The notes under the pieces: generated by a model
What the model was told of the DNA's origin: nothing
Seen by the model: the letters and a program-made list of their open reading frames with translations, nothing else
Databases searched by the model: none
Source: the human T2T-CHM13v2.0 reference genome, Homo sapiens
DNA: 64,000 nucleotides
Assembly (NCBI RefSeq): GCF_009914755.1
Contig: NC_060939.1
Reading direction: 5' to 3' (one strand)
Part shown: positions 15,638 to 62,783 of the stretch, piece after piece
Layout: each line of letters opens with the position of its first letter
Numbering within the stretch: the first letter of the stretch is position 1
Program-made: the position numbers and the translations under genes

Positions 15638-17849
15638 AAAGGCTAAGTTATATTTATAATGAAAAAAAGGAATTTAGGCTGATGACTGGCGTCTGGACAC
15701 AACAGGTCTCAAATCATGGTTCAGGTTTGGGTTTACACTCTAACCTATGGAATTAATTTTAGTGTTTAAAAATAGGTAACTGGCCCCTGAAAATTAGCGT
15801 TATCTTTTAAACACCTATGGGTGATATGTTAGAAATTCTCCTAAATAATATGATTGGTTCATTTCAGTCAGTACAGAAAATACAATCTGGTAATACTATC
15901 AGGGCATTTTTGTTAATACATTACTTGCTTTTGTATTGTAGACAACAGGACCAAGAAGTGACTTCAGGAGCAGAGGAATAAACTTTTGGCCTCTAATGCT
16001 ACTAGCTTTAAAAAGAAAGCCCTACCAGCTACCTAGTACAGTGTGACTAAAATTAATCACCGCTCGACTCAGATCATGTATGTTTCTTGATCCAAGCCAT
16101 TAAAAGTTAATGGCTTTGGAAATATTGGCAGACAAAGGCAAAGAAAAGAGACACATTGAGGGAATATGGTTCATGAAAGGCATCTTGGGAAACACATGAG
16201 ATCTGACCAGCTATAATATGAATCTCTTTAAAAAAAGATTTTAATATCACTCGTTGCTAAAGAAAGAAGATAAAAATGGTCTAAAAAATGGATACGGTAT
16301 GCTCTGTGTGCCAACAGGTAATGTGCCTTTAAGTCAGCATGCCACAGGAAATGTCCACGTTCCCTAAAAAGTAGGATGATAAAAACTGAAGGTCCAAGCT
16401 GCTGCACCACTGGACTTACCCTAAATGTAAAGACAGGAGTTCAGAATCTCTCTAATAAATGCAAGAGCTCTTCATTCTCATGACTGTTCAGAAATACATG
16501 GACGAACATGATAAACAAAGGAACATGCAAAAAACACATTTTTACCACTGGCTCAGTCAATTCTGGCCTATGGTCCTTTGGAATGGTGAATAAGGTTTCC
16601 GTGGTATAAAAAAGGTATTGGCCCTCACTGTAGATCACACCTGTAAAATAAATGACTCACCAGTCTGACTACCCAATATAGCTTTGCTCTACCAGTCATT
16701 ATCAGGGACAGCTTCTATGAGCAAATAATGACACTCTTATGGTCTCCCTTCAGAAGAAAAAGTCAGAAAAGGGGTATATAGAGCTTCAAGGATGAAATAC
16801 AAAAAGGAGTGAATATTCACTCCTTTGCCATGATCTCCTTGCAGCTTTGAACTAAGTCACATCAGGCCAAGGCACAAGGAATAACATATAGACTTTGGGG
16901 CATCAGGGAAATGGCTTCCTTGCCTCAGAAAGCTCAATATCACATGGTTTATGGCATTTTGAATAGAGAAGATTGAGGGCAACGTTTTGATCTTTTTCTC
17001 ATTAGGCTTACCTGAAACATAGATGGTATTAACGCCATAAGGGCTGTTTTAAATATGCTTTCAGAGGGATATGGCTGTGTCCAGCCATCCCTCCAACCAC
17101 TGCCTGGTGGCCTGAACATCAGAAGTAAGGCTCTGTCCACTCTATATAGTTTGTTCAGGTCTTTTGATACTACTCGAGTCTATACAAGGTACAGCCCCCA
17201 GTTCCCAGAGCGAAATTGTTTCTCCAGGCGAAAACGGGCTAATGTCCAACTTTGATTCTAAATAAGTGAGATCGTAGAGACCTGACCAGGGCTGTGAGGA
17301 CCACTCTCATTTCTATCCATCTTGACAACAGTCACTCACGAGGCATTTCTGAATTCCTGACATAACTATCGCACGAGGTTAACTGCTATAAAAGTCAATG
17401 AAATAAGTGAAGTCACTCCCTACTGTAAGAAAAAAACAACAACAAACTCATTAATTTCTCAATTTAAAGGGAAATTTTTTCCTTGCTGCAGCAGCTGATG
17501 AAAACATCATTGACTAGGCTATGTGGAATGTTTCCAAAGGGTAGAAAAATAAAACTAAGAGAAAAGAGCCATAAACAGTAAGAAAGAATGGGTAACCCCA
17601 AGTTCATTTATCCCAGGCAGGCCAACAAGGCCACATACTTAGACAGACACACTCTTCCATGCTCATTTTCTCTTCAGAGTCTGACCTTCGGCCCTGACCG
17701 CTCTGGCACCGACCACCTCCTGTGCCTCCCAGGTCAGTTTCACTAGCAGCCATGATAAAACAGACCAGCAGGAAAGTAAGAATACCAGCAGAAAGTAATC
17801 TTAGGCTTAGCTCCTAACACACCAGAATTTAGCCTTTAAAAGTTATTCC

Positions 17850-18139
17850 AGTTGGGCATGGTGGCTCACACCTGTAATTCCAGTGCTTTGGGAGGCTGAG
17901 GCAGGACTGCTTGAGGCTAGGAGTTCAAGGCCAGCCTGGGCAACACAGCAAGACCCTCTCAACTAAAAAATGCTTTTTAAAAAATGAGTTGGGCATGATG
18001 ATGTGTGTCTGTAGTCCTAACTAGTCAGGAGGCTGAGGCAGGAGGATCACTTGATCCCAGGAATTGGAGGTTACTATGATGACACCACTGCATTCTAGCC
18101 TGGGCAAAAGAATGAGACCTTGTCTCTTAAAAAAAAAAA
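17850..18139 (+). mobile_element. AluJ
   Basis: Diverged dimer with J diagnostics (gcttgaggctaggagttc, ggaggatcacttg). TSD aaaagttattcc. Confidence 0.9.
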
Positions 18140-19741
18140 GTTATTCCATGATAAATTAGCATATCACTTCTACTTTGTCCAATTGTGTACTTTGTCAAAT
18201 CTAAATCTGACAATTTTCCCTACTCTATTCCTAAGATATTTTCCTATTTAAAAGTAAAAAACTTCTCTTAGAGACTGCATGCATTTCACCAGCTACACAG
18301 ATCAGCCACTTCATAGTTTTTGTGAGCTATCACTTGTAGTACCCAAACATACTTTGACTTCAAGTGATTAATTGCAGAACAAAGTCCTCTTCCGTTTGCA
18401 GAGCTTCTCCCCCAGGACACAGGGGAGTTGAAGTTGGGGAGCCCTGGACTTGCCCTGGAATGCATGATCAGTTAAAGCCAATCACTCTGCACTTAGTAGA
18501 CATAACACCCAGAGCCGACCCGGCGATTTAGGTGCAGAGTGAAAGGTAACAGCATCGCATTCATTTCCTCATTTAGGGAGAGTAGTCTGGGAGACAGTTT
18601 GAAAACTGAAATCAGCCCTGTGTCATAAATTTGCAAATTTAATTGAAATGCATTAGTCTTTGGAAGACATTTCCAATCCCGATAATGAAGACATGCATGT
18701 GCTAGCAGATGCAAGCTCCCCCTTTTGGTTTTGAAACCTCTACCACCTACTGAGTCTCACCAAAAACTAGCACTGAGAGCCTGTTTGCATGGGTGACTGG
18801 AACAAAAGGGTGAGGAAACAGGGAAGACTGTCTGGAGTAAGGAGTCTCTCTGGCGCCCCTCAAATCATTCTACCCAGGCAGCCCCCTGTTGCATCTCTGC
18901 CCAAGGCAGGAGCTGTCAGGAGTCCCACAGATAAGTAATTTAGAAATATTCTAGGCTGAATGAAGGAGACATACTTTAGGTTTCCATTGTTCTCTGCCAA
19001 GCTAGGGAAATGGAGTGCGGACAGATGCTCTCTAAGGTTTTGATTTGAGCTCCAAAGAGGTTTGAGGCTTGGCATAGCCATGAATCCAAAGGATCTCCAC
19101 TTCCTTCTTTTTTTCTAAACAAACTGAAAGTAATACAGTCAAGAACAGAGCTGGCGATTGTTTTATTCCATTAACTAATCTTTCTTGTTCTGAACATGTC
19201 TATTCTCTTTAACAAAGCTATTAAGATTTTAGATTCTTGGGCAAAAGCAACCCATATGGGATACATTTAGGGACTTCTACCACCAAAACCCAAATAAACA
19301 AGATTTTTCATCTATCAGCAGCAGACAGCAAATCTTGCAATCAATTTCAACATGGCAAAAGGAAACACAATGATTATTTATTTGTTCAACAAATACTAAC
19401 TCAGCATCTACTATATATATGGAAAAACAAGGTGCTACAGAGAAAACAAAGTGGTACAAGACATTGTAATTATCTTCTAGGGGCCTATGATTTATCTAAA
19501 AGAGAAAGTGCCTATAACCAAATGAATAAAAAACCAAATCATTAAATGACAAAACTGAAGATACAGTAAACCCCCAAAATTCTGGAGATACGATAGCTCA
19601 CACAGATTGGAGAAAGCTTCATGAAGGACACCGTATGTGATCAATAAATTTTTCCAGAATAGTTTCATAGTCTGTATATCACTTGAGACATAATATTTTT
19701 AGATTATACCATTATGTAAATATTATAGTAGTTTTAAAGTA

Positions 19742-20334
19742 GAGTCACACACTGCATAATGACATTTCGGTCAAAGACAGACCTCATATATGATGGTGGT
19801 CCCATAAGGTTATAATGGAGCTCAAAAATTCCTATTGCCTAGTGAAGTCATAGCCACCATAATGTTGTGGCACAACTACTTTATTATAAAAATAAATTTA
19901 GTGTAGCCTAAATGTACAGTGTTTATAACATCTACAGAAGGGTACAGTAATATTCTAGGCCTTCAGATTCACCCACCACTGACTCACTGACTCACCCAGA
20001 GCAATTTCCAATCCTGCAACCTCCATTCACGGTTAAGCGCCCTACACAGGTGTACCATTTTCTATCTTTTATACTGTATTTTTACTGTACCTTTTCTGTG
20101 TTTAGATATGTTTAGATACACAAATACCATTGTGTTACAATTATATTCAGTACAGTAACCTGCCGTACAGGTTTGCAGCCTAAGAACACTAGGTTATGCC
20201 ATACAGCCTAGGTGTGAAGTAGGCTACACCATCTAGGTTTGTGTAAGTACACTCTATGATGTTCGCACAATGATGAAATCACCTAACAATGCGTTTCTCA
20301 CAATGTATCCCGCTAGTTAAGTGACACATGATTC
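19742..20334. mobile_element. Tigger3-family (Golem/MER7) non-autonomous DNA transposon
   Basis: TA-flanked. Internal gtggtcccataaggttataatggagc and gtgtaagtacactctatgatgttcgcacaatgatgaaatcacctaac are characteristic; degenerate TIRs. Confidence 0.85.
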
Positions 20335-61505: not shown

Positions 61506-61511
61506 TTTTAC

Positions 61512-61658
61512 TTTTTTTTTTTGAGACAGGGTTTCGCTGTGTCAACCAGGCTGGAGTGCAGTGGTATGATCTCGGCTACTGCAACCTCCACCTCCTGGAT
61601 TCAAGTGATTCTCCTGCTTCAGCCTCCCGAGTAGCTGGGAATACAGGCACCTGGCTAA
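61512..61658 (-). mobile_element. Alu right-arm fragment
   Basis: tttttgagacagggtttcgctgtgtc...gtagctgggaatacaggcacctggctaat. Confidence 0.85.
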
Positions 61659-62783
61659 TACCGTTGCTAATAATATAACGCACATATCATGGAAGCTTGG
61701 GAAGTTTTTATAAAACAGGTGGGGCTTGATGGCAGTTTTGAAGGGTATTTGCTGCTTGCCTAGAACACGGGAAGTGGAGCTGGCAGTCCAAGCTCAAGGA
61801 GCCCCAGGAGCCAGGGCTTTGCAGAGGCTGCAGGGGAGGAAAGTGTGTGTGGGGTGGGGAGGTTGGTATTGCATAGGTCCAGGGAGGCAATCATGAGACT
61901 CCCTAGACCACAGGAAAAATCTTTTGTGGGAATAGTAAGCTTGGACAAGTAGACTAGAGACTATGAAGATAATCTCTCAGAGACTGACACAAATAATCCA
62001 CTCATGCAAATAATCTCAAAGAATGCAGCCTTTTTTTTTTTTTTTCTAACTTCTGATTCTTAAGGATGAAGAATGTGGGTGGGGATGCCTGTTCCCGGTG
62101 TCAGTAAGTAAAATCTTCTGGTGGGGAAGTATTTTGAATATTTGCAAAGAAAGTTCAATGCTCTCCAAAGTGGAGGTAGAAACTGGCACCAGGGATTTCT
62201 GTGTACCTGCCTAGAAATACAGGGCTTTAATCTACAGCCAATGTGAACTTTTGTAACTCTTTAAAACATCATCATTTCTGAGGGACTTCAGACTCTGTTC
62301 TGTAGGTCAGCACCAGACCAACAATATAGAGTTCCTGTGATCACTTATGATTTGAAACATAAACTCAGGCTTTGAATGTTTTAAAAACACCCGTATAACT
62401 ATGGGTTGTTTAAAAATAGCTATACCCCAAAGAGTTTATTTCCAACATCTGACATGAATGCATTTTGCAGCGATTTGTTATGCAAATAATGGTAGCAGGG
62501 AAGACATATGAAAAAACATTGACCCTTCTCAAAGCCCGATGGATTTAATGCTTTTGTTAATTCTGAATTCCAAGTCTAGGGGTTGTCTGTTTGTGGTGTA
62601 TAAAATAAAATACTATATGCCTGCCTCAACTTTCCTTCTGATGAAGCTGTAATTTGCAAAGGAGCTATTGTTCCTCTATGGCTTCCCTAATTTTTCTTCA
62701 CAGACAACTGTGCTTCAGTGTGGAGAGGGGTTTCAGTGTATTGGCTGTTGAGATGATGCTGTGAGTATTTTCAAGGCAGAGGG

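What the first reader, a model, noticed from the sequence alone, without database searches (positions are those of the whole stretch)
16200..62780. FMN1 3' introns look like a multi-enhancer landscape for the neighbouring gene GREM1
Seen: only 332 coding nt lie in 64 kb, yet the introns hold several repeat-free islands (about 18.4-18.7, 24.5-24.8, 28.5-29.0, 30.2-30.6, 32.6-33.0, 41.0-41.4, 49.3-49.9, 57.3-57.7 and 62.4-62.75 kb). They repeat posterior-HOX (TTTATGG, TTTATGA, TTTATT), TCF, MEIS and SMAD-type motifs. Established: in mouse, limb deformity alleles in the 3' part of Fmn1 act by removing a control region for the adjacent BMP antagonist Grem1, later resolved into redundant enhancers. 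Inference: these islands are the primate counterparts, and some may be uncharacterised or active outside the limb.
Basis: partly seen in the sequence, partly recalled or inferred. Interest (0 to 1): 0.8.

Follow-up and report, generated by a model that had tools for sequence, protein, structure and literature searches.

The report
Known GREM1 limb enhancers inside FMN1

Summary
The window is the 3' end of human FMN1, 24-88 kb downstream of GREM1. Zuniga et al. 2012 give human hg19 coordinates for the conserved Grem1 limb elements. I shifted them with one offset: the hg19 GREM1 TSS against the hub table. HMCO1, the core of enhancer CRM2/GRS1, then falls at about 28,763-29,270. That span covers the FMN1 exon at 29,088-29,237, as published for mouse "exon 22". 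HMCO2 (CRM3) falls at about 49,471-50,288. Two of the nine islands overlap these blocks. Three more lie in or at the edge of the interpolated GRS1 counterpart. One is an alternative FMN1 terminal exon plus a lncRNA exon. Three have no support, and the mouse limb data list no element in their intervals.

The 332 coding nt are confirmed. Eight of nine islands were tested and all are single copy. TCF, MEIS and SMAD words are at chance, and no GLI-like site lies in the islands as drawn.

I could not recompute conservation, chromatin state or promoter contacts. Verdict: a real landscape, already known, with low interest. The open part is a possible non-limb role, for example near rs58349661 at about 61.3 kb.

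The parts
28763..29087 (.). Non-coding part of the human HMCO1 block, the core element (CE) of GREM1 limb enhancer CRM2/GRS1
   Evidence: hg19 chr15:33090437-33090944 (Table S1) minus offset 33,061,674 (and the hub table). Single copy in the genome. One of the two most CpG-rich non-Alu 300-bp spots lies at 28,451-28,750. Edges are good to a few tens of bp.
29088..29237 (-). FMN1 coding exon (150 nt), third from last; taken to be mouse 'exon 22', which the literature counts as an integral part of CRM2
   Evidence: AG/GT borders and open frame. Lies inside the shifted HMCO1 block. The papers state that HMCO1 is adjacent to exon 22 and that exon 22 is part of CRM2 in all species. The exon-number match is my inference, counting back from a last exon numbered 24.
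22150..33100 (.). Approximate human counterpart of the 9.8-kb mouse GRS1/CRM2 transgene fragment; holds islands 24.5-24.8, 28.5-29.0 and 30.2-30.6 kb, with 32.6-33.0 kb at its distal edge
   Evidence: Hand interpolation from mm10 coordinates, using the HMCO1-to-HMCO2 human/mouse distance ratio of 1.114. The proximal end could be as low as about 20.4 kb if the local ratio is 1.4. Inference, with edges good to about 0.5-2 kb.
30255..31033 (.). Interpolated counterpart of mouse GLI-binding region GBR2; overlaps island 30.2-30.6 kb
   Evidence: mm10 chr2:113691653-113692352, scaled as above. Island 30,200-30,600 is single copy. In mouse, endogenous GLI3 ChIP-qPCR did not enrich the GBR2 amplicons.
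49471..50288 (.). Human HMCO2 block, the GREM1 limb enhancer CRM3
   Evidence: hg19 chr15:33111145-33111962 minus the offset. It holds TTTATGG overlapping a GLI-like TGGCTGGTC at 49,720-49,732 and GGCGCC at 49,761, and I read paired TGACAG/CTGTCA at about 49,811-49,826 in the printed sequence. Such a HOX + GLI-like + GGCGCC triple within 60 bp arises in 0.96% of 20,000 random placements (post hoc).
40894..41396 (-). Alternative 3'-terminal FMN1 exon; explains most of island 41.0-41.4 kb
   Evidence: Hub table. AG acceptor upstream, AATAAA 27 nt before the exon end, no long open frame.
41203..41281 (+). Internal exon of predicted lncRNA LOC107984089, antisense to the FMN1 alternative exon
   Evidence: Hub table; AG/GT borders.
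47848..51745 (+). Terminal exon of predicted lncRNA LOC107984089; spans the whole HMCO2/CRM3 block
   Evidence: Hub table; AG acceptor, and AATAAA near the end read in the printed exon tail; overlap with the shifted block.
18400..18700 (.). Island without support
   Evidence: Single copy, one TTTAYGR. No mouse limb CRM is listed between the proximal end of delCis and CRM2.
57300..57700 (.). Island without support
   Evidence: Single copy, one TTTAYGR. No mouse limb CRM is listed between CRM3 and CRM4.
62400..62750 (.). Island without support
   Evidence: Single copy, no TTTAYGR. Lies about 1.1 kb from the shifted position of rs58349661.
61292..61292 (.). Approximate position of rs58349661, lead SNP of a BMI x colorectal-cancer interaction
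   Evidence: Build37 position 33,122,966 minus the offset. The paper's text says the SNPs lie in H3K27ac-high chromatin of normal colon epithelium. Its Supplementary Fig. S5 was not seen.
34565..34616 (-). FMN1 coding exon (52 nt)
7383..7467 (-). FMN1 coding exon (85 nt)
4869..4913 (-). Coding part of the last FMN1 exon (45 nt, ends in a stop)

Best explanation
The window holds the human counterpart of the GREM1-proximal two thirds of enhancer cluster EC1 (formerly the GCR) of the Grem1 limb landscape. CRM2/GRS1 has its deeply conserved core (HMCO1, or CE) fused to an FMN1 coding exon at about 28.76-29.27 kb. CRM3/HMCO2 lies at about 49.47-50.29 kb.

By analogy with the mouse, these intronic elements are bound in limb-bud mesenchyme by GLI3 and HOXA13/HOXD13, and CRM2 also by SMAD4. 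They contact the GREM1 promoter within a shared sub-domain. They add to GREM1 transcript level additively and shape its posterior-distal pattern together with the more distal CRM4-CRM5, which lie outside this window. FMN1 is only the host gene.

What is shown here is the position, the exon adjacency and the single-copy status. What is taken from print is the conservation, the occupancy, the contacts and the mouse genetics. What is inferred is that the human copies work the same way. The remaining islands are not part of the published limb set. One is an alternative FMN1 terminal exon, and three are unexplained single-copy intron sequence.
For: Published human coordinates and identities: HMCO1 81.5% over 508 bp, HMCO2 84.5% over 818 bp, both also matched in chicken (Table S1).

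Offset: hg19 GREM1 TSS 33,010,204 against the hub table's GREM1 start at window -51,470. My recalled hg19 FMN1 boundaries give an offset within about 30 bp of this.

Independent consistency check: the shifted HMCO1 covers FMN1 exon 29,088-29,237. This matches 'HMCO1 adjacent to exon 22' and 'exon 22 is an integral part of CRM2 in all species'.

Nomenclature: CRM2 = GRS1, CE = HMCO1, CRM3 = HMCO2.

Mouse function: deleting the 520-bp HMCO1 abolishes BAC reporter expression in limb buds. CRM2 deletion halves Grem1 transcripts. CRM2+CRM5 deletion lowers them by about 80%. EC1+EC2 deletion abolishes expression. HOX13 and GLI3 peaks lie on all Grem1-TAD CRMs, and SMAD4 on CRM2 only. Mutating the Gli and Hox13 sites in the core kills the shark CRM2.

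Human: Hi-C places GREM1 and the FMN1 3' end in one domain.

Sequence: both blocks lie in single-copy DNA (for HMCO1). HMCO2 carries a composite HOX13/GLI-like/GGCGCC cluster.
Against: I recomputed no cross-species alignment, chromatin track or contact map here, because no vertebrate genome other than this one is held. The placement rests on a single offset. A third anchor failed: looking for an FMN1 exon beside the shifted HMCO3 at about 103-104 kb, my splice/ORF heuristic found none, 0 of 94 ORFs matched FH2, and the genome-wide FH2 search lists FMN1 exons only at about 130-132 kb. That test is insensitive, since it also misses the window's own exons.

I found no paper that tests the human elements in a reporter or by deletion. 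Malkmus et al. used mouse, rabbit, pig, bovine, chicken, lizard, python and fishes, not human. Mouse CRM3 deletion alone has no significant effect, and endogenous GLI3 ChIP did not enrich the HMCO2 amplicons. The human limb-malformation deletion at this locus spares EC1. The motif content of the HMCO1 core is unremarkable under my simple word scans.
Confidence: 0.85

Rival explanations
1. Only the two published blocks, plus perhaps mammal-specific parts of CRM2, are regulatory. The other islands are ordinary single-copy intron or exon sequence picked by eye, and the 'nine-island' landscape overstates what is there.
For: TCF, MEIS and SMAD words are at chance, and HOX words are only about 2.5-fold up on self-selected islands. 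The mouse limb CRM list has nothing before CRM2 inside delCis, between CRM2 and CRM3, or between CRM3 and CRM4. Island 41.0-41.4 kb is exonic. The hub table shows no RefSeq functional element inside 16.2-62.8 kb.
Against: All tested islands are single copy, whereas one of two controls is a repeat. The mouse limb-bud data say nothing about other tissues or primate-specific elements. rs58349661 at about 61.3 kb is reported in H3K27ac-high colon chromatin.
Confidence: 0.55
2. The elements serve FMN1 itself or the antisense lncRNA LOC107984089, for example as intragenic enhancers, splicing or polyadenylation signals, rather than GREM1.
For: They sit in FMN1 introns. HMCO1 abuts a coding exon. The lncRNA's terminal exon covers HMCO2, and island 41.0-41.4 kb is an alternative FMN1 polyadenylated exon.
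Against: [quoted passage not shown] Enhancers with Fmn1-like AER activity lie in the separate Fmn1 TAD. 4C from the Grem1 promoter contacts the region. Deleting the non-coding CE abolishes CRM2 reporter activity.
Confidence: 0.07
3. The conservation at 28.8-29.3 kb reflects only coding and splice constraint on the FMN1 exon, not an enhancer.
For: 150 of the 508 bp of the shifted block are coding. The zebrafish peak at HMCO1 is the exon alone.
Against: About 325 bp of the block are non-coding. The CE region without the exon drives reporter activity, and its deletion abolishes CRM2 activity in mouse. Shark, coelacanth, chicken and lizard CRM2 are active in mouse limb buds.
Confidence: 0.04

Closest known systems
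Mouse Grem1 enhancer cluster EC1 / global control region (CRM2 = GRS1 with HMCO1 core; CRM3 = HMCO2; CRM4 = GRE1) in Fmn1 introns (Zuniga 2004, cited via others; Zuniga 2012; Malkmus 2021)
   Same: Same host gene and the same intron/exon context: the core fused to the third-from-last coding exon. Same order from GREM1. HMCO1-HMCO2 spacing is 20.9 kb in human against 18.7 kb in mouse. Published identity is 81.5% and 84.5%.
   Different: The human copies are not functionally tested in any paper I found. The window stops before the interpolated CRM4 counterpart (about 82 kb) and CTCF site (about 75 kb). The human interval carries Alu-like insertions.
ZRS, the SHH limb enhancer in an intron of LMBR1
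   Same: A limb enhancer lodged in the intron of a bystander gene and acting on a neighbour at a distance (review text).
   Different: The ZRS is one indispensable enhancer, and single mutations in it cause frequent human malformations. The GREM1 landscape is redundant, and human limb malformations linked to it are very rare.
Alpha-globin enhancers within NPRL3 introns
   Same: Several enhancers of one gene all sit in introns of its neighbour. The review names it as an almost identical arrangement.
   Different: Erythroid rather than limb mesenchyme, and different transcription-factor inputs.
Colorectal-cancer risk enhancers of GREM1 (rs16969681, rs1406389 regions)
   Same: Human non-limb enhancers shown by CRISPR deletion to lower GREM1 but not FMN1.
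   Different: They lie upstream of or within GREM1 (hg19 32.99-33.01 Mb), outside this window. None of that study's LD SNPs fell in putative enhancers inside FMN1.

Membership tests
GREM1 limb enhancer CRM2/GRS1 (core HMCO1/CE) | Lies in the FMN1 3' introns with the core directly beside coding 'exon 22' | tested here: met
   Shifted block 28,763-29,270 covers exon 29,088-29,237; statements.
GREM1 limb enhancer CRM2/GRS1 (core HMCO1/CE) | Sequence conserved from cartilaginous fishes to mammals | not testable with these tools
   No other vertebrate genome is held. Published human-mouse identity is 81.5% over 508 bp, with chicken, opossum, Xenopus and coelacanth matches.
GREM1 limb enhancer CRM2/GRS1 (core HMCO1/CE) | Clustered GLI and HOX13 sites in the core | tested here: inconclusive
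   Word scans find no TTTAYGR in the non-coding core and no GLI site within one mismatch. The paper used permissive matrices (p<0.01) that I did not have.
GREM1 limb enhancer CRM2/GRS1 (core HMCO1/CE) | Open chromatin, H3K27ac and GLI3/HOX13/SMAD4 occupancy in limb buds; contact with the GREM1 promoter | not testable with these tools
   Mouse data only. Human evidence is TAD-level Hi-C in three non-limb cell types.
GREM1 limb enhancer CRM2/GRS1 (core HMCO1/CE) | Drives a Grem1-like reporter pattern; its deletion lowers GREM1 | not tested
   Shown for mouse and ten other species, not human.
GREM1 limb enhancer CRM3/HMCO2 | Conserved block about 19-21 kb distal of HMCO1 in the same FMN1 intron series | tested here: met
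   Shifted to 49,471-50,288, with centres 20.9 kb apart. Conservation itself is from print: 84.5% over 818 bp, and present in chicken.
GREM1 limb enhancer CRM3/HMCO2 | GLI-binding region (GBR3) with HOX13 occupancy | tested here: inconclusive
   Composite TTTATGG/GLI-like/GGCGCC cluster at 49,720-49,766 (post hoc p about 0.01). Endogenous GLI3 ChIP-qPCR was not enriched in mouse, whereas ChIP-seq peaks are reported on all CRMs.
Multi-enhancer (redundant, additive) regulatory landscape | Several separable enhancers for one target within one contact domain | tested here: inconclusive
   Two published elements fall in the window. The other seven islands are not shown to be enhancers. The landscape as a whole is established in mouse.

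The most novel reading that the evidence does not exclude
At least one single-copy stretch outside CRM2 and CRM3 is a human GREM1 enhancer that acts outside the limb, in colon, stromal fibroblasts or muscle. Candidates are 18.4-18.7, 57.3-57.7 and 62.4-62.75 kb, or the 61-62 kb stretch holding rs58349661. Such an element could underlie the BMI x colorectal-cancer interaction signal in FMN1. The antisense lncRNA that runs from about 14.7 kb through CRM2 and ends over CRM3 would then mark this activity.
Probability: 0.25. Interest if true: 0.4.

Novelty: already known. Interest (0 to 1): 0.15.

Why it matters
GREM1 dosage and pattern control digit number, and GREM1 is also implicated in colorectal-cancer and clefting risk. 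Exact T2T-window positions for the human CRM2 core and CRM3 help when reading non-coding variants in FMN1 introns. The landscape itself has been described since 2004-2021, and human coordinates of the cores were printed in 2012, so nothing new is established here. The one open question is whether the FMN1-intronic stretch near rs58349661 regulates GREM1 in adult tissues.

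Tried and rejected
1. Motifs as evidence. Only HOX13-type words rise above random placement, and on self-selected islands. BMP-response-element patterns gave 0 full matches and 1 relaxed match, at 18,843, outside the islands. I rejected motifs as a basis for calling enhancers.

2. Third coordinate anchor (HMCO3 beside 'exon 19'). I fetched window 95-115 kb. 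A splice/ORF heuristic gave nothing formin-like. The FH2 family search of the genome lists FMN1 exons only at window 130,269-130,418 and 132,201-132,332. 0 of 94 stop-free minus-strand ORFs, chosen from 220 as those within about 3-4 kb of the shifted HMCO3, matched FH2. This is inconclusive, because the same model misses the window's own C-terminal exons.

3. Mouse primers to tie the mouse elements to the human sequence. None are printed: they are 'available on request', and the Malkmus Supplementary Tables 4 and 5 are in PDFs I could not read.

4. A 20-kb whole-genome repeat scan was swamped by one ~1.06-kb repeat, so I switched to single islands.

5. Rfam: 0 matches in the window.

7. Literature for human tests or acceleration. 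GREM1 + FMN1 + 'accelerated regions' gave 0 papers. 'HMCO1' gave 3 papers, none testing human DNA. GREM1/FMN1/H3K27ac/fibroblasts gave 2 papers. The craniofacial atlas and the pig-limb paper held nothing on this interval. The goat wattles locus maps to the broad region only. The exercise DMR preprint gives no coordinates in its text.

8. Colorectal-cancer signals rs144674978 (about 88.1 kb) and the Fortini enhancers lie outside the window.

Full report
**What the window is.** By the hub table it is T2T chr15:30,566,001-30,630,000. That is the last four coding exons of FMN1 on the minus strand and their introns, starting about 24 kb beyond the annotated 3' end of GREM1. GC is 39.6% and CpG observed/expected is 0.23. 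The four exons have canonical AG/GT borders.

**Repeats.** A self-comparison finds 26 repeated intervals covering 7,679 of 64,000 bases (12.0%). Nearly all are ~300-bp elements with up to 18 other copies in the window. I call them Alu-like from their size, number and CpG content, not from a repeat library. None overlaps an island.

I sent 8 island stretches to the whole-genome search of the window's own assembly, and each hit only itself:
- 28,500-29,300
- 18,400-18,700, 41,000-41,400, 57,300-57,700 and 62,400-62,750
- 24,500-24,800 and 32,600-33,000
- 30,200-30,600

Island 49.3-49.9 kb was not sent.

Of two control stretches, 20,000-20,400 is a high-copy interspersed repeat that neither the hub's mask list nor my self-comparison shows (40 scored hits at about 80% identity, 5,921 candidates). 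The other, 37,000-37,400, is essentially unique. 'Repeat-free' is therefore true and mildly informative. It is no evidence of function.

**Motifs.** I compared the islands with 5,000 random placements of nine same-sized islands in non-repeat sequence of 16.2-62.8 kb.

| Word class | Result (fraction of random sets reaching the observed count) |
|---|---|
| TTTAYGR (HOX13-type) | 8 observed, 3.24 expected; 0.006 |
| TTTATGG | 0.044 |
| TTTATGA | 0.082 |
| TTTATT | 0.070 |
| TCF | 0.45 and 0.62 |
| MEIS | 0.49 |
| SMAD CAGAC | 0.46 |
| GLI-like | none in the islands |

The islands were chosen by a reader looking at such words, so the HOX figure is circular. Three islands have no TTTAYGR, and no 500-bp window anywhere has more than three. 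All motif strings are consensus words I recalled. Motifs do not carry the interpretation.

**What carries it is print.**
- Zuniga et al. 2012 (PMC3541112; I read the abstract, section 5 part 1, sections 8, 9 and 11, and Tables S1, S3 and S4) defined three human-mouse-chicken-opossum conserved blocks in the region needed for Grem1 limb expression. They state that HMCO1 lies beside Fmn1 coding exon 22.
- Their Table S1 gives human hg19 coordinates: HMCO1 chr15:33,090,437-33,090,944 (81.5% over 508 bp), HMCO2 33,111,145-33,111,962 (84.5% over 818 bp), and HMCO3 33,164,854-33,165,790.
- Ludwig et al. 2016 (PMC4788144, passages) give the hg19 GREM1 TSS as 33,010,204. The hub table puts the GREM1 start at window -51,470. 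The window position is therefore hg19 minus 33,061,674.
- My recalled hg19 FMN1 boundaries give an offset within about 30 bp of this.

With this offset HMCO1 is at 28,763-29,270 and HMCO2 at 49,471-50,288. HMCO3 is at about 103.2-104.1 kb, outside the window.

**Check on the offset.** The shifted HMCO1 covers the FMN1 exon 29,088-29,237 plus about 325 bp on its GREM1-proximal side. This is what the papers describe. Malkmus et al. 2021 (PMC8455560; abstract, sections 6-10, 19 and 25, and passages) say that the CE region and adjacent exon 22 form one accessible region, and that exon 22 is an integral part of CRM2 in all species. That the third-from-last human exon equals mouse 'exon 22' is my inference from a last exon numbered 24.

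A second check failed but is uninformative. I looked for an FMN1 exon beside the shifted HMCO3. My splice/ORF heuristic found none. 0 of 94 ORFs, chosen from 220 as those near the shifted block, matched FH2. The genome-wide FH2 search lists FMN1 exons only at about 130-132 kb. The same model also misses the window's own exons.

**Islands against published elements.**
- **28.5-29.0 kb** overlaps HMCO1 by 238 bp, all within its non-coding part.
- **49.3-49.9 kb** overlaps HMCO2 by 430 bp. Random island sets touch both blocks in 5.1% of 20,000 trials, and touch both at least that deeply in 0.4%.
- **Interpolated elements.** I scaled the mm10 coordinates of Table S4 by the HMCO1-HMCO2 distance ratio of 1.114 (hand arithmetic). 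This puts the 9.8-kb GRS1/CRM2 fragment at roughly 22.2-33.1 kb, GBR2 at roughly 30.26-31.03 kb, and ChIP amplicon 'e' near 24.55 kb. Islands 24.5-24.8 and 30.2-30.6 kb therefore lie inside the CRM2 counterpart, and 32.6-33.0 kb sits at its distal edge. These placements are good to about 0.5-2 kb.
- **Outside the window.** The CTCF site and GBR4/CRM4 interpolate to about 75.4 and 82.4 kb. The window thus holds CRM2 and CRM3 but not CRM4.
- **41.0-41.4 kb** is largely an alternative FMN1 terminal exon (AG acceptor, AATAAA 27 nt before its end) and an antisense lncRNA exon.
- **18.4-18.7, 57.3-57.7 and 62.4-62.75 kb** have no support. Malkmus et al. define eight limb CRMs in the deleted region by ATAC plus H3K27ac and number them consecutively. 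CRM2 is the one closest to Grem1, and nothing is listed between CRM2, CRM3 and CRM4.

**How it most likely works (taken from mouse, inferred for human).**
- The CRMs in the Grem1 sub-domain carry HOXA13/HOXD13 and GLI3 peaks, and CRM2 alone carries a SMAD4 peak.
- 4C shows contacts with the Grem1 promoter, and EC1 plus EC2 together are essential.
- CRM2 deletion halves transcripts. CRM2+CRM5 deletion removes about 80% without changing digit number. EC1+CRM5 deletion changes the pattern and gives four digits. CRM3 deletion alone does nothing measurable.
- The CE is required for CRM2 activity, and a mammal-specific ME region gives it posterior activity.
- Mutating the Gli and Hox13 sites kills the shark CRM2.
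- In human, Hi-C in three cell types puts GREM1 and the FMN1 3' end in one domain, separate from the FMN1 5' part.
- The known human limb-malformation deletion removes the CRM5-9 counterpart, not EC1 (Andrey and Duboule 2023, passages).

In the sequence, HMCO2 carries TTTATGG overlapping a GLI-like TGGCTGGTC, a GGCGCC 30 bp on, and paired TGACAG/CTGTCA. The first three co-occur within 60 bp in 0.96% of random placements (post hoc).

**Outside the limb.** rs58349661 (Build37 33,122,966) shifts to about 61,292. The paper's text says the SNPs lie in chromatin with high H3K27ac in normal colon epithelium, that they showed no colon eQTL, and that expression associations were seen in other tissues, especially cultured fibroblasts (PMC10391330, passages; its Supplementary Fig. 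S5 was not seen). An exercise-responsive DMR in an FMN1 intron is reported without coordinates in the text. The proven colorectal GREM1 enhancers and the FMN1-intronic cancer signal rs144674978 lie outside the window.

**Novelty and verdict.** The landscape is textbook for limb development, and the human coordinates of its cores are in print. I found no paper that tests the human copies directly. The library lacks most subscription journals, and several supplements were unreadable. The finding is real but already known. Its motif argument is weak, and seven of its nine islands are not shown to be enhancers. Interest is low. The only open lead is a possible non-limb GREM1 element around 61-63 kb.

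Noticed in passing
window 20000-20400: This stretch is absent from the hub's mask list and from my self-comparison. It is nonetheless a high-copy interspersed repeat: about 330 bp, 40 scored genome hits at about 80% identity, 5,921 first-look candidates. The true repeat share of the window is therefore above 12%.
   Followed up: partly
window 34796-35857: A ~1.06-kb repeat with dozens of genome copies at 88-91% identity. I did not determine the family.
   Followed up: no
window 14660-14938 and 47848-51745: Predicted lncRNA LOC107984089 (+ strand, same direction as GREM1) runs through the CRM2 counterpart, and its 3.9-kb last exon covers all of HMCO2/CRM3. Its annotated first exon at 14,660 is preceded by a T-rich tract and AG, like a splice acceptor, so the model may be incomplete at its 5' end.
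   Followed up: partly
window 41151-41450 and 28451-28750: These are the two most CpG-rich 300-bp spots that are not Alu-like or simple repeat: 10 CpG each, observed/expected 0.68 and 0.59, against 0.23 for the window. One is the alternative FMN1 exon/lncRNA exon. The other abuts the HMCO1 core.
   Followed up: no
   Followed up: no
window 50389-50560: An 84-bp unit is repeated twice in tandem (93% match), about 100 bp distal of the shifted HMCO2 block.
   Followed up: no
window 7985-8574: A ~590-bp AT-rich tandem array with periods 7, 16, 32 and 64 and embedded ACGT words lies in the intron after the 85-nt exon.
   Followed up: no
window 4127-5326 and 12040-12603: The only RefSeq 'enhancer' features of the window lie outside the finding's range, near the FMN1 last exon and 2 kb upstream of the lncRNA start. 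Neither HMCO1 nor HMCO2 carries a RefSeq functional-element feature in the hub table.
   Followed up: no
outside the window, about 88.1 kb (T2T chr15 about 30,654,077): The European colorectal-cancer signal rs144674978 (hg19 33,149,751) shifts to about 5.6 kb beyond where I interpolate the CRM4/GRE1 counterpart (about 82.4 kb).
   Followed up: no
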